This document shows, one piece after another, positions 1-35,998 of a DNA stretch of 64,000 bases. The position numbers and the translations under genes were made by a program. Position 1 is the stretch's first letter; the number at the start of each line of letters is the position of its first letter. This DNA is from Azolla caroliniana (taxonomy: Eukaryota > Plantae > Polypodiophyta): contig JBHGNT010000002.1 in the NCBI GenBank assembly GCA_043228905.1, positions 21,762,001-21,826,000 on the forward strand. The letters are read 5' to 3'. The notes beneath the pieces are model-generated. The model ran no database searches. It was not told the DNA's origin and was given only the letters and a program-made list of their open reading frames with translations.

Positions 1-83
1 GTGCCTGTCTGGTCTTTTCTCTCCCTCTTCCTTCTGTCTCCCTCCTTTCCTATTAGTCTCTTATTTTCCTTTTCCTTCATCCC

Positions 84-1253
84 ATGGCCACCGTTAGCGC
101 TGAAGAGTATCAATCCGTTTTCTCGGAATTTCAATGCTTGAAAGAGAAGTTTCATGCTTTGGAACAAGAAAATCAACGCTTGTTGGGGGATCTTCAGCAA
201 ATTTCCTTAGAAAAGCAGCAAACGCAACAACAGCATGGGGAACTTGCGTTACGCATGCAACAACTCGAAGCAACCATCGTAGCAATGCAACAACAAGGGC
301 ACGGAGCACAAGGGATTCATAAAGAACCCAAGATTGGCCTTCCCACGAAGTTCGATGGAACGCGATCGCAGTTTAGAGGGTTTCTTAACCAGGTACGGTT
401 AGTTATTCAAATGCATCCGTCCCGATATCCCACCGATGCATCCCGAGTGGGTTTAGTAGGCACATTGTTAAATGGCTCAGCATTAGCATGGTTCGCTCCG
501 CTACTAGAAAAGGAATCTCCAGTACTAAATAATTTTGAAGAATTCATAAGTGAGTTTAAAGCATGTTTTGGAGATACTGACAGCATAAGGACTGCAATCA
601 ACAAAATCCGGCGATTACGCCAAGGTGACCGTCCAGCCTCCGCATATGCTGCAGATTTCCGCCTACTCGCCGCCGATATCCCCTGGGATGATCAAGCATT
701 GATGGAGCAGTTCCGCTATGGTCTACGCAACGATGTCAAGGATTTACTCTTGACTTTCCCTGAAGAGCCAAAATCATTAACAGAAGCAATCAGTCGAGCG
801 GTCAGATGTGACAACCGCCTCTTCGAGCGACGTTCGGAACGACAATTTCAGATGCCGAGGGCAAGATCCGAGCCTACCTATGCCTCAGTGGTAGCGAAAC
901 CTTTTCAAAGGGAGTCACATAATGCGCCTCCAGTAAGTACTCCAACTCCAATGGAAATTGACACTACACGTCGTCGTGGGCCACTATCGGAGGAGGAAAA
1001 GCAACGACGCCGAACAAACCGATTATGCCTTTATTGCGGTGGACCAGGGCATATCGCGATAAACTGTCCCCATAGACCAAGAAGGCAGGTAAACCAAGTC
1101 GTTGTTAGTTCTGACTATACTAAACCCGAGTCTATTTCAGTAGGAATCTCTGATAGTCCTCATAGTCATAATAGTCCTAATAGTACTAATAGTCCGAATC
1201 TCGCAAACAAATTTGATGTCCTTAGCCAATTAGAAGAAGAGTTAAACGACTAA
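84..1253 (+). CDS. gag: Gag of element A (retrotransposon gag domain plus CCHC zinc knuckle)
   Basis: PTKFDG..FRGF, LNGSALAWF, LRQG..A..YA..F, FRYGL, PTPMEID and CLYCGGPGHIAINC motifs. Confidence 0.95.
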   Translation: MATVSAEEYQSVFSEFQCLKEKFHALEQENQRLLGDLQQISLEKQQTQQQHGELALRMQQLEATIVAMQQQGHGAQGIHKEPKIGLPTKFDGTRSQFRGFLNQVRLVIQMHPSRYPTDASRVGLVGTLLNGSALAWFAPLLEKESPVLNNFEEFISEFKACFGDTDSIRTAINKIRRLRQGDRPASAYAADFRLLAADIPWDDQALMEQFRYGLRNDVKDLLLTFPEEPKSLTEAISRAVRCDNRLFERRSERQFQMPRARSEPTYASVVAKPFQRESHNAPPVSTPTPMEIDTTRRRGPLSEEEKQRRRTNRLCLYCGGPGHIAINCPHRPRRQVNQVVVSSDYTKPESISVGISDSPHSHNSPNSTNSPNLANKFDVLSQLEEELND

Positions 1254-1285
1254 GTCCAGCCAAAATAGGAGCCGTTTGGTTGGAC
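1241..1285 (+). promoter_or_regulatory. Programmed -1 ribosomal frameshift signal (G_TTA_AAC plus hairpin)
   Basis: Heptamer at 1241-1247 in gag phase, 6-nt spacer including the gag stop, then 11-bp stem GTCCAGCCAAA/TTTGGTTGGAC. Confidence 0.8.
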
Positions 1286-4200
1286 AGCCCTAGATCTGTG
1301 CAGCCCATTAGTGGTTCCATTCCCTCTAAGCAAGTTAGTGATGTGTTCGTAGCCCAAGTAGCAGTTAGTACTAAAAGTACCCCTCCAGTACATACCTTAG
1401 CCCTTCTAGATTCCGGAGCTAATTCTTGCTTCATGGATAGGAATTTTGCCCGAGCTCATCAGATATCTCTCAGAAAGCTCCCATGTCCAGCCTCAGTAGT
1501 AGTCATTGATGGTCGTCCCATTGCTTCTGGTAATATCATAGAAGAGTCGGAACCCGTTAATATTGTCCTAGATAACTTAACATGTGTAGTATCATTTAAT
1601 ATTATTAGTATTCCAGAACATCCCATAGTTTTAGGATTACCATGGTTCGAGTTACATAACCCAGACATAGATTGGAGGACAAGGGAAATCCGGTTGCGAC
1701 AAACCCAAGGATCTACCCAGAAGGTTGCAACCATTTCGCTACGTCAGTTGCGTGAGGAAGGGCGCAAGGAGGAAATGTTTCTCTTCGCAATATCAGTACA
1801 ACCCTCCAGCACCACCAAAGAGGAGTCCACCGTTCAACTTCCCGAGAAGTATCGTCAGTATGCTGATGTGTTCGATAAAGTACAAGCCAACACACTTCCT
1901 CATCATCGGCCGTACGATTGCGCCATCGACTTACAACCGGGAAAAGAGCCGCCATGGGGGCCGATCTACAATTTGTCACCAACCGAGCTAGAAGTCCTTC
2001 GAGCCTATATAGAGGAGAATTTGGAGAACGGTTTCATTCGGCATTCGAAATCTCCAGCCGGCGCACCCATTTTCTTCGTCAAGAAAAAAGATGGCTCGCT
2101 TCGACTCGTTGTAGATTACCGTGGCTTGAATAAGGTCACAGTAAGAAATAGGTATGCTCTTCCCCTTATCTCAAGTCTTTTAGAACGGATCAACGGTGCC
2201 AGGTTCTTCACGAAGATCGACTTACGAGGAGCCTATAACCTCGTACGGATCCGACCAGGAGATGAATGGAAGACCGCGTTTCGCACCAGATATGGGCACT
2301 TCGAGTATACGGTCATGCCGTTCGGACTCACTAATGCGCCGGCAGTCTTCCAGCACATGGCGAATGATATATTTCGAGATCTCTTGGATGATTTTTTGAT
2401 CATCTATTTGGATGATCTACTGGTTTATTCAAAGACCCAAGAAGAACATGATTCTCATGTACTATTAGTACTAAAACGACTTCGAGAACATGGTCTGTAT
2501 GCAAAGTTAGAGAAATGTAGTTTCGGGTGCAACCAAGTAGAGTTTCTCAGCTATGTCATCTCCTCAGAAGGCATATCTATGGACCCAGCCAAGGTCAAAA
2601 CGGTGATAGAATGGCACACTCCGCGTTCGGTGCGGGATGTGCAATGCTTCCTAGGCTTTGCAAATTTTTACCGGAAGTTCATACAAAATTACTCAAAAAT
2701 TGTGCTGCCTCTCACACAGCTCACCAGGAAGGGACAATCATTCACTTGGTCTAAAGAGACGGACATGGCTTTCGAGAGTCTTAAGAAGGCGTTTACATCA
2801 GCTCCAATTTTAGGTCATGTGGATCCGGAAAAACCATTCATTATCGAAGCTGACGCATCGGATTTCGCATTGGGGAGCATTCTGTCACAACAGGGTAACG
2901 ACGAGAAGCTACATCCTGTGGCTTTCCACTCCCGTAAGTTTGACGCCGCCGAAATCAACTACGAAATTCATGATAAAGAGCTATTAGCAATAGTTGATTC
3001 TTTTATGCAATGGAGGCATTTCCTGGAGGGATCTCCTCATCAGGTCACTGTATTCAGTGACCACAAGAACCTTGCCTACTTTCAAGATGCTCGTGTACTG
3101 AATCGACGTCAAGCTCGATGGGCTCACTTCCTCACACGCTTCGACTTCAAAATTACATATCGTCCGGGGAAGCACCAAGGGAAGGCAGATGCATTATCAC
3201 GGCGTTCGTATCTAACACCACGTCCCGGTGAGCCAGCTTTCGATAACCAGAAGCAAGTAATCTTGGGTCCAGCACGACTGCAAGCAGCACAGGTCTTTGA
3301 CATGCCCGTGGATTCCGACATTACCAATACTATACGTGAAGACTTGAAGACTGACGCTTTCGCCCAAGCTATACTAGCACAAATTGACCCCTCTCGAGCG
3401 TCATGTTCACAATCACAATCACCAGGTACGGATTATCGGCAATTCAAATACTGTGATGGATTACTCTTCTTTAAAGAACTTTTGTATGTTCCTAATGGTT
3501 CTTGCCGTCTTCGAGTAGTACAAAACTGCCATGACACATATACAGCAGGACATTTTGGTAGTACTAAAACATTAGATTTAGTACAACGATCATTCTGGTG
3601 GCCCCGTATGCGACAATTTGTCGAAGATTTTGTTCGGACTTGCGATACATGCTGCAGAGCGAAAATGCCAAGACATCATCCATATGGTTTATTAGAACCA
3701 TTACCAATTCCAAGCAAGCCATGGCAATCCATTGCTCTTGACTTCATTACAGATCTTCCAGTCTCTAAGGGATTCAGTGCGATTCTCACAGTGGTGGATC
3801 GATATACGAAGATGGCTCATTTCTTACCATGTACTAAAGAAATATCTAGTGAAGACACCGCCGAAATTGTCATGCGGGAAGTATGTCGGCATCATGGACT
3901 CCCTGATAATATCATCAGCGATCGTGGACCCCAGTTTGTGTCAAAATTCTGGAAGCACCTTTTTAAAATGCTGAAGGTCACTTGTAACCTCTCCTCCGGC
4001 TACCACCCACAATCCGACGGTCAAGCCGAACGAACAAATCAAACACTGGAGCAGTATCTGCGGTGCTTTCTCAACTATCATCAAAATGACTGGGCAGATA
4101 TTCTTCAGTTCGCCGAATTTGCCTATAATAACGCTATCCACGCATCGACTAAAGTCACGCCATTCTACGCTTATACAGGATATCATCCCCGGTGGTGTGT

Positions 4201-4837
4201 CCTTGAAACCCCAGAAGTGTCCACAAATCCTTGCGCGGAGGATCGTTTGGAGCGGTTACGCAAGATACAAGCGGATTTATCTACTCAACTCCAGCAAGCT
4301 CAACAATCACACAAGGACTACGCAGATCGTCATCGACTTCCATCCAGTTTTAACATTGGAGATCGGGTGTGGCTGCTACGACGACACATCAAGACTACTC
4401 GCCCATGTGAGAAGTTGGATTATCGGCGATTAGGTCCTTTCCGTATTATCGGGAAGATTAATGATGTCGCTTTCCGTCTCGAGCTACCTCCGCAACTTCG
4501 GATACATCCGGTGTTTCATAGTTCTCTCCTCGAACCCTATCACGAGAGCACTATCCCAGGACATACTATACAACCACCACCTCCTATCGAGCTCGAAGAT
4601 GGACCTGAGTATGAGGTCGCTGCCATCCTCGATTCCAAGATTGTTCGCAACAAGCTCTACTATCTAGTCGATTGGCTAGGATATAGTCCCAGCGAGCGTA
4701 CTTGGGAACCGATCGAGAATGTGACCAATGCTCGTGCTCTTCTAGAAGACTTCCATCGACGATATCCCGAGAAACCGGGTCCTCAATCCAAAACGACTCG
4801 TGGAACTCGTCGTTTTAAAGGGGGGATAGTGTCATAA
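1241..4837 (+). CDS. pol: Pol of element A (protease-RT-RNase H-integrase-chromodomain), in the -1 frame relative to gag
   Basis: ALLDSGA, KIDLRGAY, MPFGL, YLDD, EADASD, HHCC zinc finger, SDRGPQF, YHPQSDGQAER, GPF and chromodomain EYEVAAILD..YLVDWLGY..TWEP. The frame is open back to the slippery site at 1241. Confidence 0.95.
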   Translation, partial: VKRLSPAKIGAVWLDSPRSVQPISGSIPSKQVSDVFVAQVAVSTKSTPPVHTLALLDSGANSCFMDRNFARAHQISLRKLPCPASVVVIDGRPIASGNIIEESEPVNIVLDNLTCVVSFNIISIPEHPIVLGLPWFELHNPDIDWRTREIRLRQTQGSTQKVATISLRQLREEGRKEEMFLFAISVQPSSTTKEESTVQLPEKYRQYADVFDKVQANTLPHHRPYDCAIDLQPGKEPPWGPIYNLSPTELEVLRAYIEENLENGFIRHSKSPAGAPIFFVKKKDGSLRLVVDYRGLNKVTVRNRYALPLISSLLERINGARFFTKIDLRGAYNLVRIRPGDEWKTAFRTRYGHFEYTVMPFGLTNAPAVFQHMANDIFRDLLDDFLIIYLDDLLVYSKTQEEHDSHVLLVLKRLREHGLYAKLEKCSFGCNQVEFLSYVISSEGISMDPAKVKTVIEWHTPRSVRDVQCFLGFANFYRKFIQNYSKIVLPLTQLTRKGQSFTWSKETDMAFESLKKAFTSAPILGHVDPEKPFIIEADASDFALGSILSQQGNDEKLHPVAFHSRKFDAAEINYEIHDKELLAIVDSFMQWRHFLEGSPHQVTVFSDHKNLAYFQDARVLNRRQARWAHFLTRFDFKITYRPGKHQGKADALSRRSYLTPRPGEPAFDNQKQVILGPARLQAAQVFDMPVDSDITNTIREDLKTDAFAQAILAQIDPSRASCSQSQSPGTDYRQFKYCDGLLFFKELLYVPNGSCRLRVVQNCHDTYTAGHFGSTKTLDLVQRSFWWPRMRQFVEDFVRTCDTCCRAKMPRHHPYGLLEPLPIPSKPWQSIALDFITDLPVSKGFSAILTVVDRYTKMAHFLPCTKEISSEDTAEIVMREVCRHHGLPDNIISDRGPQFVSKFWKHLFKMLKVTCNLSSGYHPQSDGQAERTNQTLEQYLRCFLNYHQNDWADILQFAEFAYNNAIHASTKVTPFYAYTGYHPRWCVLETPEVSTNPCAEDRLERLRKIQADLSTQLQQAQQSHKDYADRHRLPSSFNIGDRVWLLRRHIKTTRPCEKLDYRRLGPFRIIGKINDVAFRLELPPQLRIHPVFHSSLLEPYHESTIPGHTIQPPPPIELEDGPEYEVAAILDSKIVRNKLYYLVDWLGYSPSERTWEPIENVTNARALLEDFHRRYPEKPGPQSKTTRGTRRFKGGIVS

Positions 4838-5416: not shown

Positions 5417-7209
5417 GGATTTTTAGAGAGGGCTGCCAAGGTGTGGGGCCGAGACAGTCCGGACACTTGGGAAAGACCCCACAGCTGTACGATAAAACCG
5501 AAACCGAAGAAACCCTGTACGATAAGTAAAAAATTTTGCTTCTCCGACAACGGAGGGTGTATGTTAGTCGGCATCGTTGGCCGAGAAAAGGCAAGGGCGG
5601 AAGTGTGACTTCGAGCGTGCGGAGTTCTCGGCCCGGACGAGGAAATCAGCGGAGCCGTGGAGGCGGTCTCCTTCGACGACACCTTGGGAATGCTGAGGAA
5701 GGTAGCCGGAGAAGACCTTAACGAAGACCGAACGATACCGGTATGTTCCGAAGAGATGTACGAAGTCATCGCGAACTTCAGTCAGGGGCTCGGGTCGGAT
5801 CGGACGGCCCGAGTTAGCACGAAGTACAAGACTGTGGACCGGAAGGTAAGGCCAGTCGCGGCACCCTTACCGGAGGACAGCGAGTCCCGAATCAGAGGGG
5901 TTGCGTCGGACCCCAGTTTACGAGATTCGGCCTGCATAGGACACACCTTCACCGACGGGACGCTCCGGGAGCTCAAAATCGGTAGGGGCGGGTTCCTACT
6001 GCCGGCGGAGGAAGACCGGTTTCGGAGAATGCTCGGAAGGCACGGAAAAGCCTTCGCATTCTCACCGGAAGAGATCGGGTGCGTAGACCCGACGATCGTG
6101 GAGCCGATGGTGATATTCACGGTACCGCATGTGCCGTGGAATCTCAAGCCGATTCCAGTACCGAGAGCTCACATCCTGGAGTTGATGGAGCTACTGAGGC
6201 AGAAAGTCGATATGGGTATTCTCAAACCGATGGTTTACCGTACCAAAGAAAAACAGAACATTGCGCTTCATTCAGGACCTGCAGCCGGCCAACAGAGTGA
6301 CCATTCGGAACGCAGGAATCGGACCGACCATAGACGAGTTCGCGGAGGCCTTCGCCGGAAGGTCGATTTACTCGGTCAGTGATCTGTACTCGGGGTACGA
6401 CCAGTTCCAGCTAGTCGTGGAGAGCAGAGACATTACGACGATGCGAACTCCCCTCGGCCTAGTGCGAATGTGTACCCTGCCACAAGGAGGGACCAACTCG
6501 GTGGCCCACATGGTGAATGCAATGAACAAGGTACTGAGGGATTGCATCCCGGACATCACCATGCCATTTCTGGACGACATCCCGATAAAGGGGTGCCCGG
6601 TGGAAGAGAAGGACGAGATAGTCGGGCCGGACGGATGCCGGCGATTCGTGGCAACACACATCGATGACTGCGAGAAGGTGCTACAAAGGCTAGAGGATGC
6701 GAGGTTTACCTTCTCCGGGGAGAAATCGGCCTTCGGGCAATCAGAAATCCTGGAGGTCGGACACCTGTGTGGACCGTATGGCCGGAAGCCGTCTCCGGCA
6801 AAAGTAGAAGCCATCTCCGCGATGAAGGCCGACTGTAGCTCGGTTACGGAAGTTCGGAGGTTCCTGGGGGCATGCGCGTTCTACCACATATGGATCCCGC
6901 ATTACGCCCACGTTGCGGAGCCGCTATACGGGTTGCTGAAGAAGGGGCGAAAATTCGAGTGGCGAGACGAGCACACGGAGTCGGTCCGGAAGCTAAAGGA
7001 AGCTCTTGCGGCAGCACCGGCGCTCCGGAAGGTTGTCTAAGAAGGGTACCCCGGTATACATAACGGTGGATACGAGCCCGACCGGGATCGGATGGGTCGT
7101 CAACCAAGAAGACGAGGACGGCACCAAGTTCCCGATCCGATTCGGCGCAAAGGTCCTCAGTGAGCGACAGCGAGGGTACGCCCAGGTTAAACGCGAACTC
7201 TGGGGTATC
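5417..7209 (+). pseudogene. pol: Element B pol, RT and start of RNase H
   Basis: ORF pieces 5657-6382, 6261-7040 and 7006-7278 join with frameshifts. There is an in-frame TGA near 5605 and a short deletion near 6225. Confidence 0.88.
7085..7209 (+). repeat. 125-bp direct duplication, left copy (right copy 11076-11200), flanking the PLE
   Basis: GGATCGGATGGGTCG...TGGGGTATC occurs twice; one substitution seen (CACCAAG vs CACCCAG). Confidence 0.95.
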
Positions 7210-7386
7210 TTACTAGGACCAAATGGTCGAAACAAGGAGTGCGTAGAGATAGGCACAAGACGATTAGAGGGTGCTTAAGCTAAACAAGAGAAAGTAGGCA
7301 ACATACACTAATGAGAGAGAGAGAGAGAGAGAGAGAGATGTTTTTAATTCAAAGAGGGAGAGATGTTTTAAATTCAAAGAGGGTGG

Positions 7387-7441
7387 TGGTCTTAGGCAAA
7401 CTAGTTTCGCTCAATAGTGGAGCTCTTCAGTGCAAAGACCA
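7387..7441 (-). ncRNA. Minimal type I hammerhead ribozyme
   Basis: Minus strand reads TGGTCTTTGCA-CTGAAGA-GCTC-CACTATT-GAGC-GAAAC-TA-GTT-TGCCTAAGACCA: CUGANGA and GAAA boxes, 4-bp stem II, palindromic minimal stem III, paired stem I. Confidence 0.82.
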
Positions 7442-7555
7442 TTACAACAAGAGAATGTGATTTATAAAGGGGTGGGAAGGAAGAGGGAGTGAGAGAAAAA
7501 GGAGTGGGGAGGATTTGATTTGTGTAGTAGATGAGAGAGAATAGAATGTGGTGAT

Positions 7556-7610
<55 letters not shown>

Positions 7611-7713
7611 GTGTGTAGGAAAGTGATAGGGAATGAGAGAAGGGAAATTAGTATAATGATGATGGTGAGGGGGGAGTTTTTAATGTGATGAAAAAGGGGG
7701 ATTTGGGATAATA

Positions 7714-7913
7714 TTAAGTGGGGGATGTGGGTGAATTATTTGAAAACTTAGTGTTAAGTGGGGGATTTGGGTGGATTGTTTGAAACTTTAGTCTTAAGTG
7801 GGGGATTTGGGTGGATTGTTTGAAAATTTAGTCTTAAGTGGGGGATTTTGGTGGATTGTTTGAAAACTTAGTTTTAAGTGGGGGATTTTGGTGGATTTTT
7901 TGAAAACTTGGTC
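7714..7913. repeat. Five copies of a 40-bp tandem repeat derived from the PLE RT C-terminus and stop codon
   Basis: Units start at 7714, 7754, 7794, 7834 and 7874 (TTAAGTGGGGGATTTGGGTGGATTGTTTGAAAACTTAGTC-like). Confidence 0.92.
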
Positions 7914-9862
7914 TTAACTAGGAGGGCATGTAAGGACTTAGATTTTGTCCAACATACGAAAGGGCGTGAGATGCTTGTAAGCTCGGGATCTAACATTAAG
8001 TCATTATAGAGATTTTTTAGAAAACTATGAATGCCTAGTTTTGGGGTATGTTTGGTGTATCTAAGTTTAAAGATTGTGGGGTTAAGGGAAGTAATAGTTT
8101 TGGGTTGATATAGGAGTGTTTTTCTAAGACTAAAAGGTATTTTCTTATAGCTTTTTAGTATAAAGGATGGAGGGTAACCACGGTTAACTAGTCTATTGAA
8201 AAAGAGTTTTTTCATTTGGTAGAAACCTAATGGGGTGCTTTCTCTAATAAGATATCTCTTCACTTCATTAGTGATAAAGTGTTGTTTCGTATGGGAAGGA
8301 TGATCCGATGAAAAAGGCAAGTATTGGTATGAATTGAGAGGTTTTTGAAAACAATTAAATAAGAAAGATGAATTTTCGAGGTTGATCCATATGTCTAAAA
8401 AAGGTAGCCGAAAGGGGGAAGTTTGAATGGTAAGCTTGATGGAGTTATTTGTGTGTGAAGGGTAAAAGTCGAGATATTCTAAAAGTTGAGATTTGGTGCC
8501 TGTCCAGACCCCAAATGCATCATCAATATAGCGGGTGAAGTAGAAGAGATGGGGGGGCGATGGTTGTAAGTTTTCGAGATATACTAAAAAGAGGCATGCA
8601 TATACGACTGAAAAGTTGCTACCCATGGCCGTACCTTTTATTTGTTGGTAAACTACGTCATCGAAAGTGAGATAGTGATATTCTAAAATAAGGGCACTAA
8701 GGGTATAGATGAGATTTGTTTTCGAAGGGGAAAAGTGGGGGGTGATTAGACTACGTAGGGCTTGGAGTCCTAACTTAGGGGGGATACTAGGATAGAGAGA
8801 TTCAACGTCAAACGTGAATAAGAAACTATTAGATGGTGGGTGTAGGTTTTCTAGTGATTGGATTAGTGTGTGAGAGTCTTTTAGATATTGTGGTTGGAGA
8901 AGGAGGATTGGTAAAAGTTGGTGGTGTAACCACTTTGATGTTTGTTCAAATAAGGAGTTATTATATGAACAAATGGGCCGGAAACCCATAGGTGTTTTGT
9001 GTAATTTAGGGAGGAAATAGAGGTTGGATACTTGATATCCTTTTTTGGGTTTGTGGAGGATGAAATTAGCTTCAATTGGGGAAAGTGTACCTAAGTGGTT
9101 TGTTATTATGTTATTAAGGCGGTATAGTAACTCTTCCAAGGGGAAGTGGCTGACTCTCTTATAGGTGGTAGAATTTGAGAGGTGTTCTATGGCTTTGGTG
9201 TAGTATGTGTCTTTATCTAGAACACATACTCCCATATTTTTATCGGCTGGGAGGATGATAATGTGTTTGTTGTGTTGGAGGCTTTTAAAGGCTCTAGAGA
9301 GGTGGTATGGGATTCTAGTGTTTATGGGTTTAGTGTTGTGTGCTATTTGGTTAAGGATGTGTTGGTGTTTTTCTATTATGGAGACTAGGGGTGGATATTC
9401 TGTGGGTGGCATCCAACTAGGGTTAGGTAGTTTGAAGGGGTTGAGAGGAAGTGAAGGTGTATTTCTAAAAAAATGTTTTAGCTTGAGGGATCTCGAGAGG
9501 TGGGTGAATTCTTTTAGGATATTGTTGGGTGAGGGAGGTGGGGATGGTAGGATATACTTAAGGCCTAGGTTTAGCAATTGTGTTTCATTTTTAGTGAGGT
9601 TATGTTTAGAGAGGTTATGGATTTTACTATGAATTACTTGTGTACTAGTAAGAGGTTTCCAGAAGTTGGTTCTAGGTTTTTTATTTCGGGATTTGGGGTG
9701 TGAAAGGAAGGGAAATAGTTTCTGTTTTCCCCCAAACCACATATATGTGTCTTGGGTGGAGGGGGATCTATTAAGTAGGTAGAATAAACGTTTGCTAGGG
9801 TGTACGACGTGTCTAAACCGTTTGTTAACGCGTTTAGCACGCCTAGCTAACCGTTTTTTGGT
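7874..9862 (-). CDS. Penelope-like reverse transcriptase (first ATG at 9742; frame open from 9862)
   Basis: HNLS..LT..E..LL.LGLKY, ILPADKNMG, LYFLPKLHK, RPICS, TFDVESLYPSI, QIKGTAMGS, RYIDD, LPFLD, KP...YQYL.F.S.HP and RGYP motifs. The ORF stops shortly after the SLHALLV linker. Confidence 0.92.
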   Translation of the reverse strand, partial: TKKRLARRAKRVNKRFRHVVHPSKRLFYLLNRSPSTQDTYMWFGGKQKLFPFLSHPKSRNKKPRTNFWKPLTSTQVIHSKIHNLSKHNLTKNETQLLNLGLKYILPSPPPSPNNILKEFTHLSRSLKLKHFFRNTPSLPLNPFKLPNPSWMPPTEYPPLVSIIEKHQHILNQIAHNTKPINTRIPYHLSRAFKSLQHNKHIIILPADKNMGVCVLDKDTYYTKAIEHLSNSTTYKRVSHFPLEELLYRLNNIITNHLGTLSPIEANFILHKPKKGYQVSNLYFLPKLHKTPMGFRPICSYNNSLFEQTSKWLHHQLLPILLLQPQYLKDSHTLIQSLENLHPPSNSFLFTFDVESLYPSIPPKLGLQALRSLITPHFSPSKTNLIYTLSALILEYHYLTFDDVVYQQIKGTAMGSNFSVVYACLFLVYLENLQPSPPHLFYFTRYIDDAFGVWTGTKSQLLEYLDFYPSHTNNSIKLTIQTSPFRLPFLDIWINLENSSFLFNCFQKPLNSYQYLPFSSDHPSHTKQHFITNEVKRYLIRESTPLGFYQMKKLFFNRLVNRGYPPSFILKSYKKIPFSLRKTLLYQPKTITSLNPTIFKLRYTKHTPKLGIHSFLKNLYNDLMLDPELTSISRPFVCWTKSKSLHALLVKTKFSKNPPKSPT

Positions 9863-11075
9863 CTACTAGGTTGTGGGTCTCCTAGTGGTTTTGGGGGAGG
9901 ACAAGGTTTTGATGTATTTTGATAGTGTTTATAGTTTTTATGTGAGGGAGTGTTAGAAGAAAAGTTGGGGGTTTTTGTGTTAGGAAGAAAGGGGTTGTGA
10001 GAATAAAAGTTGGGGGTTTTTTTATTAGGAAGAAAGGGGGGGGGGTTTAGTGTAATATGGAGGATGTGTAGGGGGGAGATGAGTTGAATATGGAGGATGT
10101 GTTGGGGGGGAATGATAAGTATAATGAGAGTGATGTGGGCTAATTAAAGGGGTATGGGTAGGGTAAGGATTTGAAAAAAGGTGGGGAAGGGCATTATGAA
10201 AATTAGATGATAATGGGGGAGGTGTAGAGTGATAAATGGAAGAAAATTGTGGGGGGTTTGAATGGAATTCTTCAACATAAGGGGGGTGGGTAGAGTAAGA
10301 ATTAGACAAAAAGGGGGAGGGGGTATCCATGTAATATTTAGAAAGTAAAAAGGGGGTAGGAGGAGGAGGATGGGGGAACGAGTGAGAGAAAGAGGGAGGG
10401 GGGGGGGGGAGGAGGAGGAGGAGGGAGCTGTTTGTACAGAGAGGTTGCGTGGGGGGAGAGAGGAGTGGGGAAGATTAGGGTTATGTAGGGGGTGGGAGAC
10501 ATTGTTTTCTTCATAATACATGTGTGGGGTTGGGAGGAGAGGGGGCATGTATCCATGACGGCTGCCTTGTGCAATCCCGTGCATCATGCCATGGAGGGGG
10601 GGTTGTAGATCTATAGGCCGGCTGTCATACACAGTCCGGAGCCTTACATTGGAGGGGGAGAACGGGTACGTATGATGGTTTCCGTTTCCATTTCCATAGA
10701 TATGGTCGTTACCGGGTCGAAGATGGAGTGGTGGCCATGCTTGTAATTGTGAATGGTACCGGTCGCGTTGGCGTTCGTTGTGAGTGGCTGGCTGGTTCCT
10801 GTCGAATGTCGGTACTGGAGTATGTGGATCCGACATATATGGTGGATGGTGTCCGGCGTTGATTGTGGTATAGGGATGTGAGGGAAGTTTATTTTGGTTA
10901 ATAAATGTAACCCTCGGGCCATTAAGGTTAAAGGGGGGGACGAAGTTCTTACTAACTTCGTTTGTGGCTATATTGCAGGTAAATCGGGGGAGGGAGTGAT
11001 GATTGGTTGGTCGGAGAGGCTTTTGTTGCAAGGGTTTAGGGTTAGGTTTATGGTTGGGTTTATGGTTGGGTTTAT
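9847..11075 (-). pseudogene. PLE ORF1, Pro/His/Ser-rich; frame broken at poly-G runs; ends ...PSRPKNG*
   Basis: ORFs 10144-11223 and 10025-10330 plus an open frame 10045-9847 join at G-runs near 10040 and 10400. Confidence 0.55.
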
Positions 11076-12886
11076 GGATCGGATGGGTCGTCAACCAAGA
11101 AGACGAGGACGGCACCCAGTTCCCGATCCGATTCGGCGCAAAGGTCCTCAGTGAGCGACAGCGAGGGTACGCCCAGGTTAAACGCGAACTCTGGGGTATC
11201 ATTTCGGCAGTAAAGGCCGACAAAGACTACCTGATCGGGACAGAAGTGATTATCGAGACGGATTGCCTGCCAATTCTCGGCATGGTTTCCGAATGCGCGA
11301 CACCGGACCTGGCGATGCTCAGGTGGATAGCGTACATCAAGTCCCTGGACCCGGAAATACGGCACATTTCCGGAAAGGACAACGCCATGGCCGACATGCT
11401 TTCGAGGGCGAGGTTTGATGACGAGGGCAGCATGGTTTCGGAGGACGAAGAAGTCGGCGTGGACTTCTTCAAGGCGGCGTACGCAACGACCGATGGGACG
11501 AGCACTCCGGCACTTAACGGCTTCGACGAGAGCAAGTACGACGGCGAATGGCTCCAGATCGGTGGATTTTTTAGAACAATGACGCCGGATGCGTCATGGA
11601 CGAAGGACGAGGCCAACCGGATCCGGAAGAAAGCTTACCGATTCTTTCTCCGGGACGGATACTTATGGAAGCACCCGAAGAAGAGGAATGGCGTCCCGCT
11701 CCGGGTGGTGGCGATGAAGGAAGATCAGGAGGAGCTGCTGACGGCTTACCACGACAGCCCTTGGGCTGGTCACCGTGGAACGTGGGCCACGTTCGAGAAG
11801 ATAAAGGGGAAGTACTGGTGGCCGGGACTGTACCGGGACGTGCATCGGTTCGTGACAACTTGCGAGAGCTGTCAGATGCACTCCATAGTCCGGCATCGGG
11901 ACGAGCTTCACCCTACGTACCCTCCGACCATCCACTTCAAATGGATGGTAGATCTGGTGACGATGCCGATGGGCGTAGGACAGATGCGGTATCTGGTCCT
12001 GGCTCGGGAAGATCTGACGAACCAGGTGGAAGGCCGAGCCCTTCAGAACAAAACGACTGCGGTCGTATGTCGGTTCCTGATCGAGGACGTGGTATGCCGG
12101 TACGGGTGCGTCAGGAAGATCGTGGCTGATCGCGGGGAGTTGGACGCCGAAGAGGCCGAGGAGCTGTTCGACCGGCTAGGAGTCAAGCTCTCGCTTACCA
12201 CTGCGTACAATCCGGAGGCGAATGGGAAGGTGGAGCGCGGACACGGCCCGATCGTCAAGGCGTTAGTTCGGGCATGCGGGGGGCAAGTCGGGAACTGGCC
12301 GCGGCTGCTGCCTTACGCGTTATGGGCTGACCGAACTACGCACAGTTCGGTAACCGGATTCATGCCGGCAGAGCTCATGTTTGGGCAGAAGCCGATCATG
12401 CCGATGGAACGTACAATCTCCTCGTGGGCAACCGTGGACTGGAGAGACGAGATGAGCCGGGAGGAACTGTTGGCGGCGCGTATACGACAGCTCGAGCGAA
12501 GACCGGAGGACGTGGAGCAGGCTGCGGGAAAGCTTCGGGTGGCAAGGACGAGGAACAAAGCCCGGTTCGACCGGACGCACCGGCTCCGACCAAAGAAGAT
12601 CGAGGAAGGCGACTGGGTGCTAGTCTACGACAGCAGCCTCGACAACCAGCAACGAGCGACACGGAAGTTCGCAAGAAGGTGGTTCGGGCCTTACGTGGTC
12701 CAAAGCGCCAACGACAACAGGACGTACCATCTGGCGGAACTCGACGGCACGAGAATGGCGATACCGGTAGCTGGGAAGCGGATCAAAGCGTTCAAGAAGC
12801 GTCACGACGACGAGCCGGATCCGGTTAACCTGGACCGCGACGACGAACGATCCGAAACCGAGGAAGAACCGACGGGCGGGGAATGA
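11076..12886 (+). pseudogene. pol: Element B pol, RNase H and integrase (resumes after the PLE insertion)
   Basis: Open frame IGWVVNQ...GKRIKAFKKR with RNase H and integrase motifs. Confidence 0.9.
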
Positions 12887-14300: not shown

Positions 14301-15324
14301 AGTTAAATCTCTTGAAGCTAACTTGTCAAGGAACTCGTTTAAAACTTAAAGGTTTGGTCTCGGAAACTTCATCTATTGAGATTTCATTCAACTCACGACT
14401 AGCACATTGCAAAACAATATTTGGTGCATTCTTATAAGGATCGGTTGAGAAAAGCGAGTTAGAACTAGTATGATTATACATCGGGTCATTTGAAACAGGT
14501 AATATGTCACATTTTAAGAACTTTCCATCAAAAAATGCACAAATTAGGGTGATTCACAAAAAGGGGTGCCGCATGTGTAAAGGATTTTAAAAAATGACCC
14601 AAAAATATATTGATTTCTAGCAGTACGAAATTTTAGGTGTTCAAAAAAATGCCTAAATAGTGGACATGCCAAACTTACAAATAAATGTCCAAAATGACTA
14701 ACACCAATATTTATAGAAATTCATGAATCCAAATCTTGATGTACAATACAATATTTATAGTTAACGTATCAGAACAATCGTTTTCCAAGTTTATGCCATC
14801 ATCTTCATACCCATTAGATAAACTAGTAGGAGTTTATCAAGTCTCATCCTAATCATCAATGGCAACTAATGCATTGTCTTCATCTAATTGCAATCCAACC
14901 TCATCGTGGTTATGAGTCATGCTTCTTATTTGTCTTTGTGTTGTGTCTGGAGCCACATTCGAGATCCTCTTTTAGTATCTTCATTGTGGTGTGTCGCAAA
15001 TAGCTTGTTTTGGTCAAAGATAAGTCATATACTAGTATATAAACATTATCCAATGTAAGAGTAGATGTGCTTGATGCATTCTTTCTTCTTCAATTTTTGT
15101 TTATGATATTTAATTATGTACTTTATATTTACGATATTTGATTATCTGAGAGAAACCTTCTACCAAAATCATTAGAATCTAAAAAATGTCGTAAAGATGT
15201 TTTTCGTTTTTCTTAGATTCTCATAGTAAGCCTTTGATGTCAAACAAAATCCGCCGATCACGCCGTGAATTGAGAGAGTCAAACTTATAATCAGAATTAA
15301 TGCCACATTGCTGATCCTTCCATC

Positions 15325-17220
15325 TAGATTTGATGCACTATGTCAAATTTTACTCTTTACATCTAGATTTTGATGTAGTGCATCAAATTTCTGTTGTAAG
15401 TCTTGGAATTTTCTAAAAAATTTCCATTAAAAAAATGCTCTTGCATTTTCAACTAAGACACAATGCATTGCATCGTATTCTAGCTATATAGACTAAAATA
15501 TGATACACTGCATTAGATTTCAGTTAAAAATCCACTTTTAAAATATCTTTAGAAAATGAATTTTTTTTTAAAAATCTTGGATTTTCGACTCAAATCTGAT
15601 GCATTGCATTGTGTTTTACTTTATACATCTAGAATCTAATGCACTGCATTGGATTTTAGTTGAAAATATGCAATTGTTTTATTTATTTCATTATTTATTT
15701 ATTTTTTCATTTTTTCTATAACAAGATTAAAATATAAAAAAATGTACTATCAATTGAAATTCGATGTATTGCAACCAATTTTAGTCTATAAAGCTAGAAC
15801 CCGATGCAATGCATTGGATTTTAGTTGAAAATCTATTTTTTTTAAAACAATGTTTTATATTTTTTCCATAAAAATAAAAAATTATGAAAAAATAGATTTT
15901 CAATTGAAATCCGGTGCACTACATCAGATTTTAGTCTATACAGGTAGAATCCGATGCATTAGATCATATTTCCATTGAAAATACATTGATTTTATTTATT
16001 TTTAGTCTTTTTGAATTTGTTTTATTTTTTCCATAAATAAATTGAAAAACTGAATTTTCAACTAAAATCCGATGCACTGCATCGGAATTTAGTATATAGA
16101 GTTAGAATCCAATGCAATGCATCGGATTTCAGCTGAAAATCCATTTTTTTGAATTTTTTTTATTTTTCCTATAAATAAATAAATAAAAATTGAAAAAATG
16201 GATTTTTTGTGCATTGGATTTCCATTGAAAATCCACTTTTTATTTATTTTTTTCAAATTTTTCCATAAAACAAAATCAAAAATTAAAAAATGTTGGATTT
16301 CCAACTAAAATTTCTAGTTGGAAATCCATCATTTTCTTGGCCATTTAAAATGATGGATTTTTAACAGAAAACCGATGCAATGCATCGGATTTCCATTGAA
16401 AGTCCAAGATTTTTATTTTATTTTTTTAATTTATCATGGATTTTCAACTGAAATACAACGCACTGCATTGGATTTCCGTTGAAATTCCAATATTTTTTTA
16501 TTCTTTCATTTTTTTATTAAAAAACTAAAAGAAATTTGGATTTTCAATTGAAATCCGATGTAGTGCATCAGATTTCAGTTGGAAATCCATTTTTTTAAAT
16601 ATTTTTATTTATTTATCAAAAAAAAGAAAAAGTATTTTCAGCTAAAATCCGATGCACTGCATCGAATTCTAGTTGTATAGACTAAAATCCGACGCAATGC
16701 ATCAGCTCTCAGTTAAAAATCTATTTTTTTATTTTTTTTATGTTTTATTGTTTAATTTATTTTATGGAAAAAAGAAAAAAATTTGGGAAAAGAAAAAAGA
16801 AAAATGGATTTTCGACCTTAATCCAATGCACTGGATTGGATTGTAGTTGTATGGACTAAAATACAATGTAGTGCATCATATTTTAACTAAAAATCCATTT
16901 TTTATTTTTTTATGGAAAAAAATTAAAAAATTAAAAACATTTCTTGGAGTTTGTATTGAAATCTAGTGCATTGCATTGGATTCAAGTTCAAAATCAAAGA
17001 TTTTTTATTTTTTCAAATTTTATCTAGTTGAAAATCCGATATAGTGAATCAGATCCTAAATGTGGCTCTAGACACTACACAAAGACAAACAAGAAGCATG
17101 ACTTAGAACCACGATGCATTGCATCGGATTATACTCTATACATCTAGTATCTAATGCAGTGCAATGGATTCTTGTTGTAAGTGTTGAATTTCCAACAAAA
17201 ATGCGATGCATTGTATCAGT
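15325..17220. repeat. Array of about two dozen degenerate palindromes (AATCCGATGCAnTGCATCGGATT) in AT-rich spacers
   Basis: Perfect cores near 16069 and 16371. Many copies occur as pairs about 40 bp apart. Confidence 0.85.
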
Positions 17221-17389
17221 TTTGAAAATATACAAAATTTCCCCTAGTTTTCTATGTAGTTAGACCTCCATTTTCTATAGATTTCACCACATTTTTTTGC
17301 TAAGAAATACTCATTTTATGGGAGTTATTCAATCTTTCCATGTAACCACAAACTCCACACATAATTTAAAAATGCAAATATAAAACCAA

Positions 17390-17910: not shown

Positions 17911-18720
17911 TCAAGCAAACCCTTTACTGGACTTGGAACTTTGTACTCGTCGATTGAGAAATATGAGCTACTTGACAAGGCATATTGGCCCACAAATAAC
18001 AAAGAACCTCTACTCGAAGCGGAAGAAATCTGAAAAGCAACACTCAAGAAACAAAAACACATTACTACAAATAGACAAAACTCTTTCTCATTTTAGCATC
18101 TGCTTTGAAGCAAATTGTTCATATAAGAAAACCAAAAAACATACATAATTTATTTATAGTTTATTATCAACGTATTTTGTAGGTTTATTGTCCCCAAAAT
18201 TAGTTTTTATACGATTTTATTGTTTTATTTATTAAAATTACCTTACGTTATATCATTTCTTTAGGTTAAGTCTAATTCACCTTAATTTTCAAAATTTATT
18301 TTCTTTGTAAAATAATTTAATGTATTGTTATCATTTGAAGTTCAATTTATTTTCTATTTTTTCTTTTAAAAAACTTTTAATTGTAAAAGAATATTTTTAT
18401 TTGAAAACAAAATAATAATAATAAGTTACTATATAAAGGGTGGACCTACCCTCATTGTCAACATCACGTGTCATAAGATTACAGAGCTAAGAGCACAAAG
18501 CAAAAAAGTCATCGTTTCAGCCTTCAAAGTCAACACTCATCACTAGCCAAATATCATGAACAAGGGCAAAAAAGTCACCAAGCATGTCTCCCAAAAAAGA
18601 TTCTAAAAGATGCTTAAAAGATTCTTTGATAATTTTCTTGTTTAAGTAGTATTTTTTCTAATGTCATTTTCAAATTTTAGAAAAAGAAAAACAAGTTTAG
18701 TCAAACACAAAACAATAGCA

Positions 18721-19040
18721 AGAGAACTCGATGCAGTGCATCGAGTTCTCTCTCACGTTACCAAGAAAACTCGATGCACTACATCGAGTTCTCTTACAAT
18801 ACTATGAGAACTCGATGCACTGCATCAAGTTCTCATAGTATTGTAAGAGAACTCGATGCAGTGCATGGAGTTCTTTGTGAAAAGCAAGAGAACTCGATGT
18901 AGTGGATTGAGTTCTTGTATACTTTCAACGAGAATTCAATGCACTGCATCAAGTTCTCGAACACAACGAATATAATCCCATACGGTGCATCGGATTCGCG
19001 TACAAACATACAGGAGTCCGATGCACTGAATCGGATTTAA
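18721..19040. repeat. Second palindrome array (GAGAACTCGATGCAsTGCATCGAGTTCTC), about 8 copies at ~41-bp spacing
   Basis: Same GATGCAnTGCATC core with different flanking arms. Confidence 0.88.
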
Positions 19041-33658: not shown

Positions 33659-34057
33659 CGTTCTGGTTGCATCTCGTTTTTTGTCGATTTTGTTGTTGCC
33701 ATCAATCTACCTTGCTTGTATCTGTTTATGATCTTCCCTCTAGAAGAGTGTTGATTTGTTCAACACTAGATGACCATGTTACCAACATCTGGTATCAGAG
33801 CTCGAGGTCCTTTCTATTCTGTTGTTGTCATCTATCTAGTCTCCATCAACAACTCTTCTTCTGTACACCATGAAGATCTTGGTTGGCAACTCTCTACAAG
33901 ATCGTTTTCTCAAAGAGAAACACCAGCAAAATCTTCACTCCACTATTCTAAATCAACATTGAAGTGAGTCAATCGGTTGCACTTCACTCCTATGATTGTA
34001 GCCGTTCGGAGTGAGATTTCACTTCACAAGCTCTGCCTCAACTGTTACGGGCATGAC

Positions 34058-35998
34058 TGTCACGGACACACCAAGTGCGGACTAAGACGAAGCACGGATG
34101 ATGAGGCTACGACGGAGCGATGACGGAATGACACAAGAGCATAAAGACAGAGATGAAGATTAAGGAGAGAAGATGGGCGAAATGAGAATACTAGATTGAT
34201 ATGTCCATGACTGGCATTGTTCACCTTGAATTCCTTCAAGGTGAACTCAACTATTTATACTAAGTGGCATGCATACCTGTTGCACGCATGTGATACAATA
34301 GAGCATGTAGGCAGTAGGTACGCATGCATGTGCCAAGTGTAAATAATACAAGGGAGAAATTATGCACATGATGCTAGCTAAAACCTACAATGAGGAAGTA
34401 TATACATGATTATATGCTAGATGTGTGGTTAACACATAACACTCGATTATAACATCGTCATGTCAAGAGTTCAAATCTTGACATTATCCCCCCTCCAATG
34501 ATGCCTTCCCAAATCGTTTGTCGGCTTAAGGGGATATTGTTGATGAAAATCTTAGATCACCTCCAAAGTATTTTATAAATCCTAGACAAGGAGGAACCCT
34601 TCCACAAGATGAGGTATTCAACACCAACGGGCATGAGTGACCATGTGTGGTCCTCGCCTAGGACTGGAACACAAATATCAACGGGTGTGAGCGACCATGT
34701 GCGGTCCTCACGGGGAGCATGAACACCAAGGGGCATGAGTGACCATGTGTGGTCCTTGCCGGGAACTAGAACGGTCCTTGCTGAGAGTTGGAACACGAAC
34801 ACCAATGGGCGTGAGCAACCATGTTGTCCTCACCGAGAATTGGAACACGAACGAGTGAGTGACCATGTGGCCCTCACCGAGAACAAGAACACGAACGGGA
34901 GTAATCGACCATGTGTGGTCCTCACCGGGAACTGGAACATGAACAACAATGGGCATGAGGGATCATGTCGGTCCTCACCGGGATCTGGAACACGAACAAT
35001 AGTTGGAGTGAGCAACCATGTGTGGTCCTCACCGGAGATTGGAACATGAACACCAACGGGCGTGAGCGACCATGTGTGGTCCGCAATGAGAATTGGAACA
35101 TGAACCGCAATGGGCATGAGCGACCATGTCGATCCTCGCCGGGATGTGGAACATGATAAATAATTGGAGTGAGTGACCATGTGCGGTCCTCACCAAAGAC
35201 TGGAACACGAATGGGAGTGAGCGACCATGTGGCCCTCACCGGGAACAAGAACACAAACTGGTGTGAGTGACCATGCGGCCCTCACCGGGAGCTGGAACAC
35301 GAACACCAACGGGAGTGAGTGGCCTTGTGCGGTCCTCATCGGGAACTGGAACACGAACACCAACGGGAGTGAGAGTCCTTGTGCGGCCCTCACTGGGAAC
35401 TAGAACATGAACACGAACGGGAAAGAAACTAAAAAATAGAGACAATGATGAGGAGAAACTAAAAAATAGAGACAATGAAGCAATGTTGATGATGGTACGG
35501 TGATGATGGTAACTCTAGAAGCAAGGGCGATGATGGAGACGGGTGATGCTTCTAGTTGGAAGGTGAACAAACTGTCACGGACACACCAAGTGCGGACTAA
35601 GACGAAGCACGGATGATGAGGCTACGACGGAGCGATGACGGAATGACACAAGAGCATAAAGACAGAGATGAAGATTAAGGAGAGAAGATGGGCGAAATGA
35701 GAATACTAGATTGATATGTCCATGACTGGCATTGTTCACCTTGAATTCCTTCAAGGTGAACTCAACTATTTATACTAAGTGGCATGCATACCTGTTGCAC
35801 GCATGTGATACAATAGAGCATGTAGGCAGTAGGTACGCATGCATGTGCCAAGTGTAAATAATACAAGGGAGAAATTATGCACATGATGCTAGCTAAAACC
35901 TACAATGAGGAAGTATATACATGATTATATGCTAGATGTGTGGTTAACACATAACACTCGATTATAACATCGTCATGTCAAGAGTCCGAATCTTGACA
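34058..35998 (-). mobile_element. Element F: young non-autonomous LTR element (426-bp LTRs at 34058-34483 and 35573-35998)
   Basis: LTRs near identical (2 differences seen); 5-bp TSD ATGAC; minus-strand PPT GGAGGGGGGATAA; no coding domain. Confidence 0.93.
34615..35420. repeat. ~54-bp tandem minisatellite (about 15 degenerate units) forming the interior of element F
   Basis: Unit TGGAACACGAACACCAACGGGCGTGAGCGACCATGTGTGGTCCTCACCGGGAAC-like. Confidence 0.88.

What the first reader, a model, noticed from the sequence alone, without database searches (positions are those of the whole stretch)
7210..11075. Plant Penelope-like element combining ORF1, a frameshift-linked RT, no endonuclease and a 3' hammerhead
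Seen: an intact PLE-type RT with no GIY-YIG domain at either end, an upstream Pro/His-rich ORF1 joined by a slippery site, a 40-bp repeat array, GA tracts and a sense-strand hammerhead near the 3' end. Known: a similar layout occurs in Athena/Terminon elements of rotifers and Coprina elements of fungi, and EN-minus PLEs have been reported from Selaginella. Inference: this is a little-described land-plant PLE family that moved recently and interstitially without its own nuclease.
Basis: partly seen in the sequence, partly recalled or inferred. Interest (0 to 1): 0.85.

Follow-up and report, generated by a model that had tools for sequence, protein, structure and literature searches.

The report
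Nuclease-free fern retroelement inserted mid-chromosome
This is a young, front-truncated copy of a telomerase-related jumping gene with no DNA-cutting enzyme, in what is likely a fern; its kind is known from spikemoss and conifers, but this copy sits inside another transposon between 125-base duplications instead of at a chromosome tip, likely because it copied itself onto a broken DNA end.

Summary
A minus-strand Penelope-like element (11075-7210) interrupts a Gypsy pol gene and is framed by a 125-bp duplication (124/125 identical). It has an intact 662-codon telomerase-like RT frame, a conserved -1 slippery site with hairpin, and a covarying type I hammerhead. Full-length relatives (93% RT identity) show the copy lacks the first ~383 of 806 ORF1 codons. 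No GIY-YIG domain occurs in any frame of 31 closest loci, and the missing ORF1 part is predicted to be all-helical. The RT falls in a land-plant nuclease-minus clade (bootstrap 100) with Selaginella, Cryptomeria, Ginkgo and Picea proteins; Closterium is sister. Nuclease-minus PLEs of Selaginella and conifers are already in print, so the lineage is known. What I did not find described: a likely fern radiation in which one subclade carries CCCTAAA tracts and joins telomeric repeats, while this family has none and joins ordinary DNA, here with a 5-nt microhomology. Likely mechanism: RT primed by a pre-existing 3' DNA end. The long duplication rests on one assembled site not confirmed by reads. 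The scan noted the same element group twice elsewhere in this genome. New variant of a known kind; interest 0.45.

The parts
7085..7209 (+). Left copy of the 125-bp target duplication (RNase H region of the host Gypsy pol); its last 5 nt (7205-7209) also match the element's own downstream sequence
   Evidence: 124/125 identical to 11076-11200; alignment to tandem junctions of L006 and L003
7210..11075 (-). 5'-truncated endonuclease-minus Penelope-like element
7217..7243 (-). Conserved 3'-end signal: 11-nt motif (7243-7233) followed by a short hairpin (7228-7217); 3' junctions of several copies lie about 18-35 nt past the motif; candidate RT start signal or promoter element (inferred)
   Evidence: motif in 10 family-level loci; 10 invariant columns; hairpin with two-sided changes in 2 of 3 pairs, weak energy
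7313..7383 (-). TC microsatellite and 25-bp duplicated unit in the 3' UTR
7388..7440 (-). Type I hammerhead ribozyme motif, palindromic loop 3, predicted cut after GUU between 7399 and 7398
   Evidence: cleavage untested
7556..7607 (-). TC microsatellite in the 3' UTR
7714..7917 (-). 40-bp tandem array (5.1 copies), an amplification of the last codons and stop of the RT frame; copy number differs among relatives
7874..9862 (-). RT open frame, 662 aa stop to stop, DKN motif, RT core with YIDD, thumb, no endonuclease
9806..9859 (-). Predicted -1 frameshift signal: AAAAAAC (9859-9853) and hairpin (9843-9806); ORF1 stop at 9849-9847
9847..11075 (-). 3' part of ORF1 (family residues 384-805), Pro/His/Asn-rich, broken by two frame changes in C-runs near 10400 and 10040
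11030..11075 (-). Telomere-like C-rich repeats at the truncation point; they are ORF1 coding sequence (Asn-Pro/Lys-Pro repeats) present in full-length relatives, not telomerase additions
11076..11200 (+). Right copy of the 125-bp target duplication; host Gypsy pol continues to 12886

Best explanation
The insert is a young, 5'-truncated copy of an endonuclease-minus Penelope-like retrotransposon of the land-plant clade, which likely entered this Gypsy element when its reverse transcriptase extended a pre-existing 3' DNA end rather than a cut of its own. Shown: the anatomy, the absence of GIY-YIG in full-length relatives, the clade, the 125-bp duplication, the 5-nt match at the 3' junction and head-to-tail tandems in relatives. 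Inferred: (1) a tandem or read-through RNA is translated into ORF1 and, by -1 frameshifting, an ORF1-RT fusion; (2) RT binds near the conserved 3' motif and starts copying about 20-35 nt past it, inside the RNA, as shown in vitro for an EN+ PLE; (3) the primer is whatever 3' overhang can pair with a few bases there: a telomeric G-overhang for the sister subclade with CCCTAAA tracts, a staggered or resected break or a stalled-fork end for this family; (4) copying stopped after 3.87 kb inside the telomere-like coding repeats of ORF1, the new end annealed 125 nt upstream of the priming site, and host repair filled in, duplicating the target; (5) the hammerhead, probably as a dimer, trims tandem transcripts and need not take part in insertion.
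For: Duplication and geometry. Both copies of the duplication share variants that other Gypsy copies in four public runs lack (loose ends at 7123 and the difference at 7127), so they come from one copy. 3' junction: the element's continuation in tandem relatives equals the first 5 target bases (that 5-mer has a frequency of 0.0007 per position), and contigs of another run follow the element to 7206 before diverging. No GIY-YIG: a profile from 21 EN+ relatives hit 4 control loci (E 4e-42 to 3e-7) among 474 six-frame translations and none of L001-L031 or the window better than E 0.1; Pfam found GIY-YIG in 8 of 55 proteins, none of them among the 12 frames from the plant loci; the conserved ORF1 domain folds as five long helices (pLDDT 86) with no PDB match at E<=0.001. 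Frameshift: RT is in the -1 frame of ORF1 in the close loci, and in L015-L017 the first Met of the RT frame lies 306 codons in; hairpin with two-sided changes in 4 of 11 pairs. Telomeric tracts: 10 CCCTAA each in 3 of 14 3' UTRs (L008, L015, L016), 0 in 11 of 14 including the window; L016 runs into about 10 perfect CCCTAAA repeats at the position where others run into the next ORF1. Non-telomeric 3' flanks in L003, L005, L019, L020 and in contigs of runs X2 and X3. Internal RT start and hammerhead-independent insertion in a Poseidon PLE: PMC11167929.
Against: The 125-bp duplication is seen at one site. No listed contig bridged either junction in the two lay-ups (lists were cut and runs may be other individuals), and self-comparison of 24 related loci found pseudo-LTRs and tandems but no flank duplication (few loci hold both flanks and short-read contigs of repeats may join flanks of different copies). 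No whole genome was held, so copy number, chromosomal position and the presence of an EN+ helper are unknown. The in vitro EN+ PLE started at a site not homologous to the target, unlike the microhomology proposed here. The outgroup plant families L021, L026, L027 also lack tracts, so 'loss of telomere targeting' cannot be polarised. No activity (cleavage, frameshifting, priming) was tested.
Confidence: 0.62

Rival explanations
1. The element is inserted with help in trans from an endonuclease of another retroelement (an EN+ PLE such as Chlamys, or a LINE) that nicks both strands far apart.
For: EN+ PLEs exist in the green lineage and variable second-nick distance sets duplication length in EN+ PLEs (PMC8557442). 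No genome was available to exclude a helper.
Against: No EN+ protein lies in the plant clade or its nearest outgroups. A 125-bp offset is far longer than the 8-bp duplication cited for a PLE-mobilised insert (PMC6431247) or the 7-20 bp typical of L1 (recalled). The 3' junction has base-pairing potential with the target.
Confidence: 0.15
2. The copy first capped a broken or natural chromosome end, like a telomeric Coprina element, and became internal later by end fusion or recombination with a sister or related Gypsy copy.
For: Sister subclade attaches to telomeric repeats (L016); the copy is cut at telomere-like repeats; terminal attachment is the described mode for EN- PLEs.
Against: The window has no tandem TTTAGGG/CCCTAAA run; the repeats at the 5' end are ORF1 coding sequence; the same Gypsy copy continues on both sides with a 125-bp overlap. 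A fusion with the sister chromatid would be mechanistically close to the best explanation anyway.
Confidence: 0.1
3. The long duplication is an assembly artefact or an unrelated later event, and the true insertion had little or no duplication.
For: Both flanks are a very high-copy Gypsy family; no listed contig bridges the junctions; two homopolymer frame breaks in ORF1 hint at long-read errors.
Against: The duplication starts and ends exactly at the element's ends, the 3' end matches the family's usual end, and the two copies share private variants yet differ at one base.
Confidence: 0.08
4. ORF1 or the RT frame hides an unrecognised nuclease.
For: ORF1 has no Pfam or PDB match, so its function is unassigned; PLE-X elements insert at a precise rDNA site with no identified nuclease (PMC8557442).
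Against: The only conserved ORF1 domain is predicted all-helical with four invariant residues (L, P, S, Y) and no invariant acidic or His/Cys set; the rest is low-complexity; the RT model has no domain beyond the TERT-like ring.
Confidence: 0.05

Closest known systems
EN(-) PLEs of Selaginella moellendorffii (Sm1/Sm2, filed under Coprina) and of conifers (Pinus taeda, Picea abies)
   Same: RT clade shared with a S. moellendorffii protein (XP_024523476.1, 38% identity) and Cryptomeria, Ginkgo, Picea proteins (UFBoot 100); no endonuclease; type I hammerhead in the pseudo-LTR (PMC4209133).
   Different: This family has no reverse-complement telomeric tract and this copy is internal with a 125-bp duplication; host is likely a fern. 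I could not confirm that the Selaginella protein is Sm1 or Sm2, and the two primary papers (Gladyshev & Arkhipova 2007; Lin et al. 2016) were not held.
Coprina elements of fungi (e.g. Coprina-1_Alen, PMC13159263)
   Same: EN-minus, DKN-RT-thumb, coiled ORF1 upstream in some families, terminal direct repeats, hammerhead.
   Different: All 13 Alen copies lie at chromosome ends, 12 of them with telomeric repeats at the inner border; here internal.
Athena / Terminon elements of bdelloid rotifers
   Same: ORF1 with coiled coil, frameshift-linked RT, 3' hammerhead, head-to-tail arrays, 5' truncation.
   Different: Rotifer-specific; telomeric stretch directly after the hammerhead; units up to 40 kb with accessory ORFs. 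Here a ~5-kb two-ORF unit, the 3' end ~190 nt past the predicted cut, and a hairpin rather than a demonstrated pseudoknot.
PLE-X of Chara and spike mosses (Chlamys clade, PMC8557442)
   Same: Plant PLEs with hammerhead and no GIY-YIG that insert inside chromosomes.
   Different: PLE-X have the CxC motif and the insertion-in-fingers domain; both are absent here, so this is a separate case of nuclease-free internal insertion.
Dryad (Penelope/Poseidon) and Neptune EN+ PLEs
   Same: PLE RT, pseudo-LTRs, hammerhead, internal insertion.
   Different: C-terminal GIY-YIG, single ORF, separate clades.

Membership tests
Penelope-like elements (order) | RT with DKN-type motif, closest to telomerase RT | tested here: met
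   ADKN motif conserved; Foldseek ranks 1-9 are TERT structures
Penelope-like elements (order) | Pseudo-LTRs / partial tandem head-to-tail copies, 5' truncation | tested here: met
   L005, L006 pseudo-LTR; L008, L011, L013, L014, L015, L027 tandems; window copy truncated
Penelope-like elements (order) | Type I hammerhead motif in the terminal repeat | tested here: met
   (motif and covariation; cleavage not assayed)
Land-plant EN(-) PLE group (Selaginella, conifers) | RT monophyletic with Selaginella and conifer EN(-) RTs | tested here: met
   SH 1.0 in a 260-sequence tree; UFBoot 100 in a 60-sequence tree
Land-plant EN(-) PLE group (Selaginella, conifers) | No GIY-YIG endonuclease in the full-length unit | tested here: met
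Coprina (telomere-associated EN- PLEs) | RT groups with named Coprina references (Cc1, Pc1, Pt1, Sm1, Sm2) | tested here: inconclusive
   No named reference could be fetched; the RT sits in a large EN- radiation with a Selaginella protein whose identity to Sm1/Sm2 is unverified
Coprina (telomere-associated EN- PLEs) | Reverse-complement telomeric repeats near the 3' end | tested here: not met
   0 CCCTAA in this family's 3' UTR; present in sister loci L008, L015, L016
Coprina (telomere-associated EN- PLEs) | Location at or near chromosome termini, joined to telomeric repeats | tested here: not met
   This copy is inside a Gypsy element, no telomeric array in the window; distance to a telomere unknown; L016 of the sister subclade does meet it
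Athena / Terminon | ORF1 with coiled coil joined to RT by frameshift | tested here: met
Athena / Terminon | Telomeric stretch immediately after the hammerhead; rotifer host; Athena RT clade | tested here: not met
   No such stretch; plant host; Athena references not available for the tree
Naiad / Chlamys / PLE-X | CxC motif before RT and insertion-in-fingers domain; N-terminal GIY-YIG in EN+ members | tested here: not met
   0 CxC before DKN, motif A-to-B spacing 58 aa in the 93% relative P0001, as in canonical PLEs; no GIY-YIG upstream
Penelope/Poseidon (incl. Dryad), Neptune | C-terminal GIY-YIG endonuclease | tested here: not met
   separate clades

The most novel reading that the evidence does not exclude
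An ancient streptophyte lineage of telomerase-like retroelements (Closterium, spikemoss, ferns, gymnosperms) primes on any exposed 3' DNA overhang by a few base pairs near a fixed RNA start signal; a short tract in the 3' UTR acts as a switch, sending one fern subclade to telomeres while tract-less families such as this one spread genome-wide by patching breaks or stalled forks and leave duplications over 100 bp long.
Probability: 0.35. Interest if true: 0.75.

Novelty: new variant of a known kind. Interest (0 to 1): 0.45.

Why it matters
EN-minus PLEs are the closest mobile relatives of telomerase and are described as largely confined to chromosome ends; how any of them inserts internally without a nuclease is stated as open (PMC8557442). 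Here closely related families (63-65% RT identity) in what appears to be one plant group differ in having or lacking a telomeric tract and in their 3' junctions, which gives a natural pair for testing primer choice by a telomerase-like RT. It also extends the plant EN(-) group to ferns and zygnematophyte algae, and flags a repeat type that Pfam and Rfam scans miss.

Tried and rejected
No host genome was held. Rfam at E<=1 found no hammerhead and single-sequence folding was not significant; the case for it rests on comparison. Idea that the C-rich repeats at 11030-11075 were added by telomerase: rejected, they are ORF1 codons in full-length relatives. Idea of a conserved pseudoknot at the frameshift: the consensus fold gave only a hairpin. 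Idea that this family 'lost' telomere targeting: not polarisable, since outgroup plant loci L021, L026, L027 also have 0 tracts. Viral contigs: 64 pattern matches, 0 relatives. PDB sequence searches: 0 hits for the RT alone, three weak group II/retron RT hits for its profile, five weak helical hits for ORF1. ORF1 homolog search returned 3 proteins, all 77-98% identical. Protein Atlas not available for ORF1. No RNA holder listed; this says nothing on expression. Depth in the lay-ups falls towards the 5' end but is not a copy number and was not used. In the first tree 14 of 274 sequences were dropped for under 80% core coverage; support labels printed are shifted by re-rooting and were re-read from the splits. 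Papers not held: Gladyshev & Arkhipova 2007, Arkhipova et al. 2017, Lin et al. 2016. The Craig et al. supplement was searched but was cut when stored, so unseen parts may bear on Sm1/Sm2 identity and on fern PLEs.
Full report
OBSERVATION. The stretch 7210-11075 is strongly G-skewed on the + strand and interrupts the RNase H region of a + strand Gypsy pol whose RT lies at 6198-7040 and whose RNase H and integrase continue at 11076-12886. A local alignment of the flanks shows a 125-bp direct duplication, 7085-7209 and 11076-11200, with one mismatch. On the - strand the insert holds an open frame of 662 codons (9862-7874), three overlapping Pro/His/Asn-rich frames upstream, a 40-bp array, TC tracts and a hammerhead core at 7430-7405.

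RT AND CLADE. Local Pfam gave 0 families for the RT frame and the PDB sequence search 0 hits, but the homolog search returned 167 proteins (120 listed) and the representative search 1727 at E<=1e-30 (150 listed). An AlphaFold model (pLDDT 83) matches telomerase RT structures at ranks 1-9 (best E 3e-12). Named relatives at 37-41% identity come from Selaginella moellendorffii, Cryptomeria japonica and Ginkgo, a 90% cluster includes a Picea glauca protein, and two outgroup proteins are from Closterium. A FastTree of 260 of 274 RT cores gives a 43-sequence plant clade with SH 1.0 inside a large endonuclease-free radiation. An IQ-TREE of 60 chosen sequences gives UFBoot 100 for the land-plant clade (29), 94 with one Closterium pair added, 80 for the 17 sequences around the window, and 100 for the split of 49 EN- from 11 EN+/animal sequences. 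No named Coprina, Athena or TERT sequence could be put in the trees. The host is likely a fern: the APO gene at 51730-52572 has best named hits in Adiantum and Ceratopteris (59-61%) against at most 52% in seed plants.

FULL-LENGTH STRUCTURE. The metagenome scan gave 78 loci. L004-L006 are the same family (93% RT identity). L005 and L006 show the unit: pseudo-LTR, ORF1 of 806 aa from ATG, slippery site, RT, 40-bp repeats, TC tracts, hammerhead, 3' end. The window copy covers ORF1 residues 384-805 only, and contigs of runs X3, X4 and X6 carry 490-1230 further bases past 11057-11069. Its ORF1 remnant changes frame twice in C-runs; at the run near 10036 the contigs of X1 and X9 have one base fewer and X6 two fewer, so these are copy-specific changes or long-read errors. 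Head-to-tail repeats occur in L008, L011, L013, L014, L015 and L027 among 24 loci compared.

NO ENDONUCLEASE. A profile from the C-termini of 21 GIY-YIG-bearing relatives found four control loci (E 4e-42 to 3e-7) among 474 six-frame translations, and nothing better than E 0.1 in L001-L031 or the window. Pfam found GIY-YIG in 8 of 55 proteins, none among the nine ORF1 and three RT frames taken from plant loci. The part missing from the window contains the only conserved ORF1 domain, predicted as five long helices (pLDDT 86) without a PDB match. CxC and the insertion-in-fingers domain are absent, which excludes Naiad/Chlamys/PLE-X.

FRAMESHIFT. AAAAAAC at 9859-9853 is in the phase needed for a -1 shift from ORF1 into RT; it is identical in 9 of 10 aligned loci and is followed by an 11-pair hairpin with two-sided changes in 4 pairs (z -3.0 to -3.9 in the window). 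An in-frame Met exists at RT codon 41 in this family, but in L015-L017 the first Met is 306 codons in and in L026 257, so frameshifting is the simpler common route. The more distant L021, L025, L029 and L031 have long ORF overlaps without this heptamer (that output was cut in the middle).

HAMMERHEAD. Rfam did not detect it. In 14 loci the catalytic boxes are invariant, loop 3 is always a palindrome in four different versions, and 98.4% of 126 helix cells pair, covariation score 0.32 against 0.15 in shuffles and at most 0.07 in slid controls. This fits the dimer-forming type I motif described for PLEs, including Selaginella (PMC4209133, parts 1-2 of 4 read).

ENDS AND TARGETS. An 11-nt motif plus a small hairpin lies just before the 3' end in all close families. 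3' junctions fall about 18-35 nt past the motif in the window, L005, L016, L019, L020 and in contigs of X2 (7206, three contigs) and X3 (7214); L003 extends about 95 nt into the next ORF1. In tandem relatives the element continues with the same five bases that start the target here. CCCTAA tracts occur in 3 of 14 3' UTRs examined (L008, L015, L016; 10 each) and in none of the other 11. The tract-bearing RTs form a subclade (UFBoot 99) sister to the tract-less group holding the window (99). L016 runs into about ten perfect CCCTAAA repeats at the junction position, one contig end showing telomere attachment. The window has no telomeric array, and the C-rich repeats at its 5' break are Asn-Pro/Lys-Pro codons shared with full-length copies.

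AGE. One mismatch in the duplication, an intact RT, and a 2044-nt contig with 7 differences in run X3 indicate a young copy. Against L005 the RT differs by 59 synonymous and 46 non-synonymous codons. Twenty runs from 10 studies hold part of the stretch, 9 of them half or more.

MECHANISM. The geometry equals a break with 125-nt complementary 3' overhangs, or a nascent strand that switched to the RNA and returned 125 nt back. Either gives a telomere-like 3' end, the substrate described for EN- PLEs. I therefore favour RT priming on a pre-existing 3' end through a few base pairs at an internal RNA start site (0.62). Internal initiation and hammerhead-independent insertion were shown for an EN+ Poseidon element, though there without target homology (PMC11167929, parts 1-2 of 4 read). 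Rivals: a nuclease in trans (0.15), terminal addition followed by fusion (0.10), assembly artefact (0.08), cryptic nuclease (0.05). The main weakness is that the long duplication is one site, unconfirmed by reads; 24 related loci showed no flank duplication but are short-read contigs.

WHAT IS KNOWN. PMC8557442 (abstract, sections 3, 9, 12, part 1 of 13, supplement search) describes EN- PLEs as generally terminal, draws ORF1 with a frameshift, and reports EN-less PLE-X with internal insertion by an unknown route. PMC9033089 (passages) lists EN(-) PLEs in Selaginella, Pinus taeda and Picea abies. PMC12477314, PMC6431247, PMC13159263, PMC4700185 and bioRxiv 10.1101/2020.09.15.297952 and 10.64898/2026.07.22.740005 were seen as passages only. 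The three primary papers on EN- PLEs were not held, so anything they say on ferns or internal copies is unseen. Nine literature searches listed no paper on fern EN- PLEs or on long duplications for such elements; listings were judged by title and abstract start. Two unreviewed notes of this scan describe the same group elsewhere in this genome and one describes fungal Coprina; I saw them after forming my reading, and the sequence look-up found none.

VERDICT. Real feature; member of the known land-plant EN(-) PLE clade; works like Coprina/Athena in RT, frameshift and hammerhead but fails the telomeric-tract and terminal-location tests. New variant of a known kind, interest 0.45.

Noticed in passing
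L014, L015, L016, L008 (3' UTRs); L016:6231-6302: Sister subclade with CCCTAAA/CCCTAAT tracts between hammerhead and 3' end; L016 ends in a perfect plant telomeric array at the junction position.
   Followed up: partly
ORF1 middle of L005, L007, L008, L010, L014-L016; window 11030-11075: Asn-Pro repeats in ORF1 are encoded by telomere-like AACCCT/CCCTAA repeats; the window copy is truncated inside this tract, which may be a preferred stop or capping point.
   Followed up: partly
L006:996-1005: The 5' pseudo-LTR of this full-length copy begins about 10 nt upstream of the predicted hammerhead cut site.
   Followed up: no
L004:5478-5815: Two hammerhead-bearing 3' segments in tandem, the second with a changed catalytic box.
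   Followed up: no
Cryptomeria proteins of cluster P0017: Several near-identical 626-aa copies with neighbouring locus numbers on short scaffolds (15-52 kb), suggestive of tandem arrays.
   Followed up: no
L021, L025, L029, L031: More distant plant families share the ORF1 helical domain but have long ORF1/RT overlaps without the AAAAAAC heptamer.
   Followed up: partly
window 57-4837: An apparently intact gag-pol of a second Gypsy-type element (398 aa and 1203 aa frames) next to the host Gypsy; a related decayed copy of the host family lies at about 25300-29100 on the - strand (~70% identical).
   Followed up: no
window 15300-17250 and 18680-19040: AT-rich arrays built on a palindromic GATGCA(C/G)TGCATC core in direct and inverted orientation (MITE- or satellite-like).
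   Followed up: no
window 34056-35870: Identical 300-bp direct repeats 1515 bp apart enclosing a 46-54-bp tandem array (TRIM-like or solo small LTR element).
   Followed up: no
window 24062-25203 and 39143-40332: About 1.1-kb inverted duplication, 98% identical, 14-16 kb apart.
   Followed up: no
window 51730-52572: APO-domain host gene; best named hits are ferns, used to infer the host group.
   Followed up: yes
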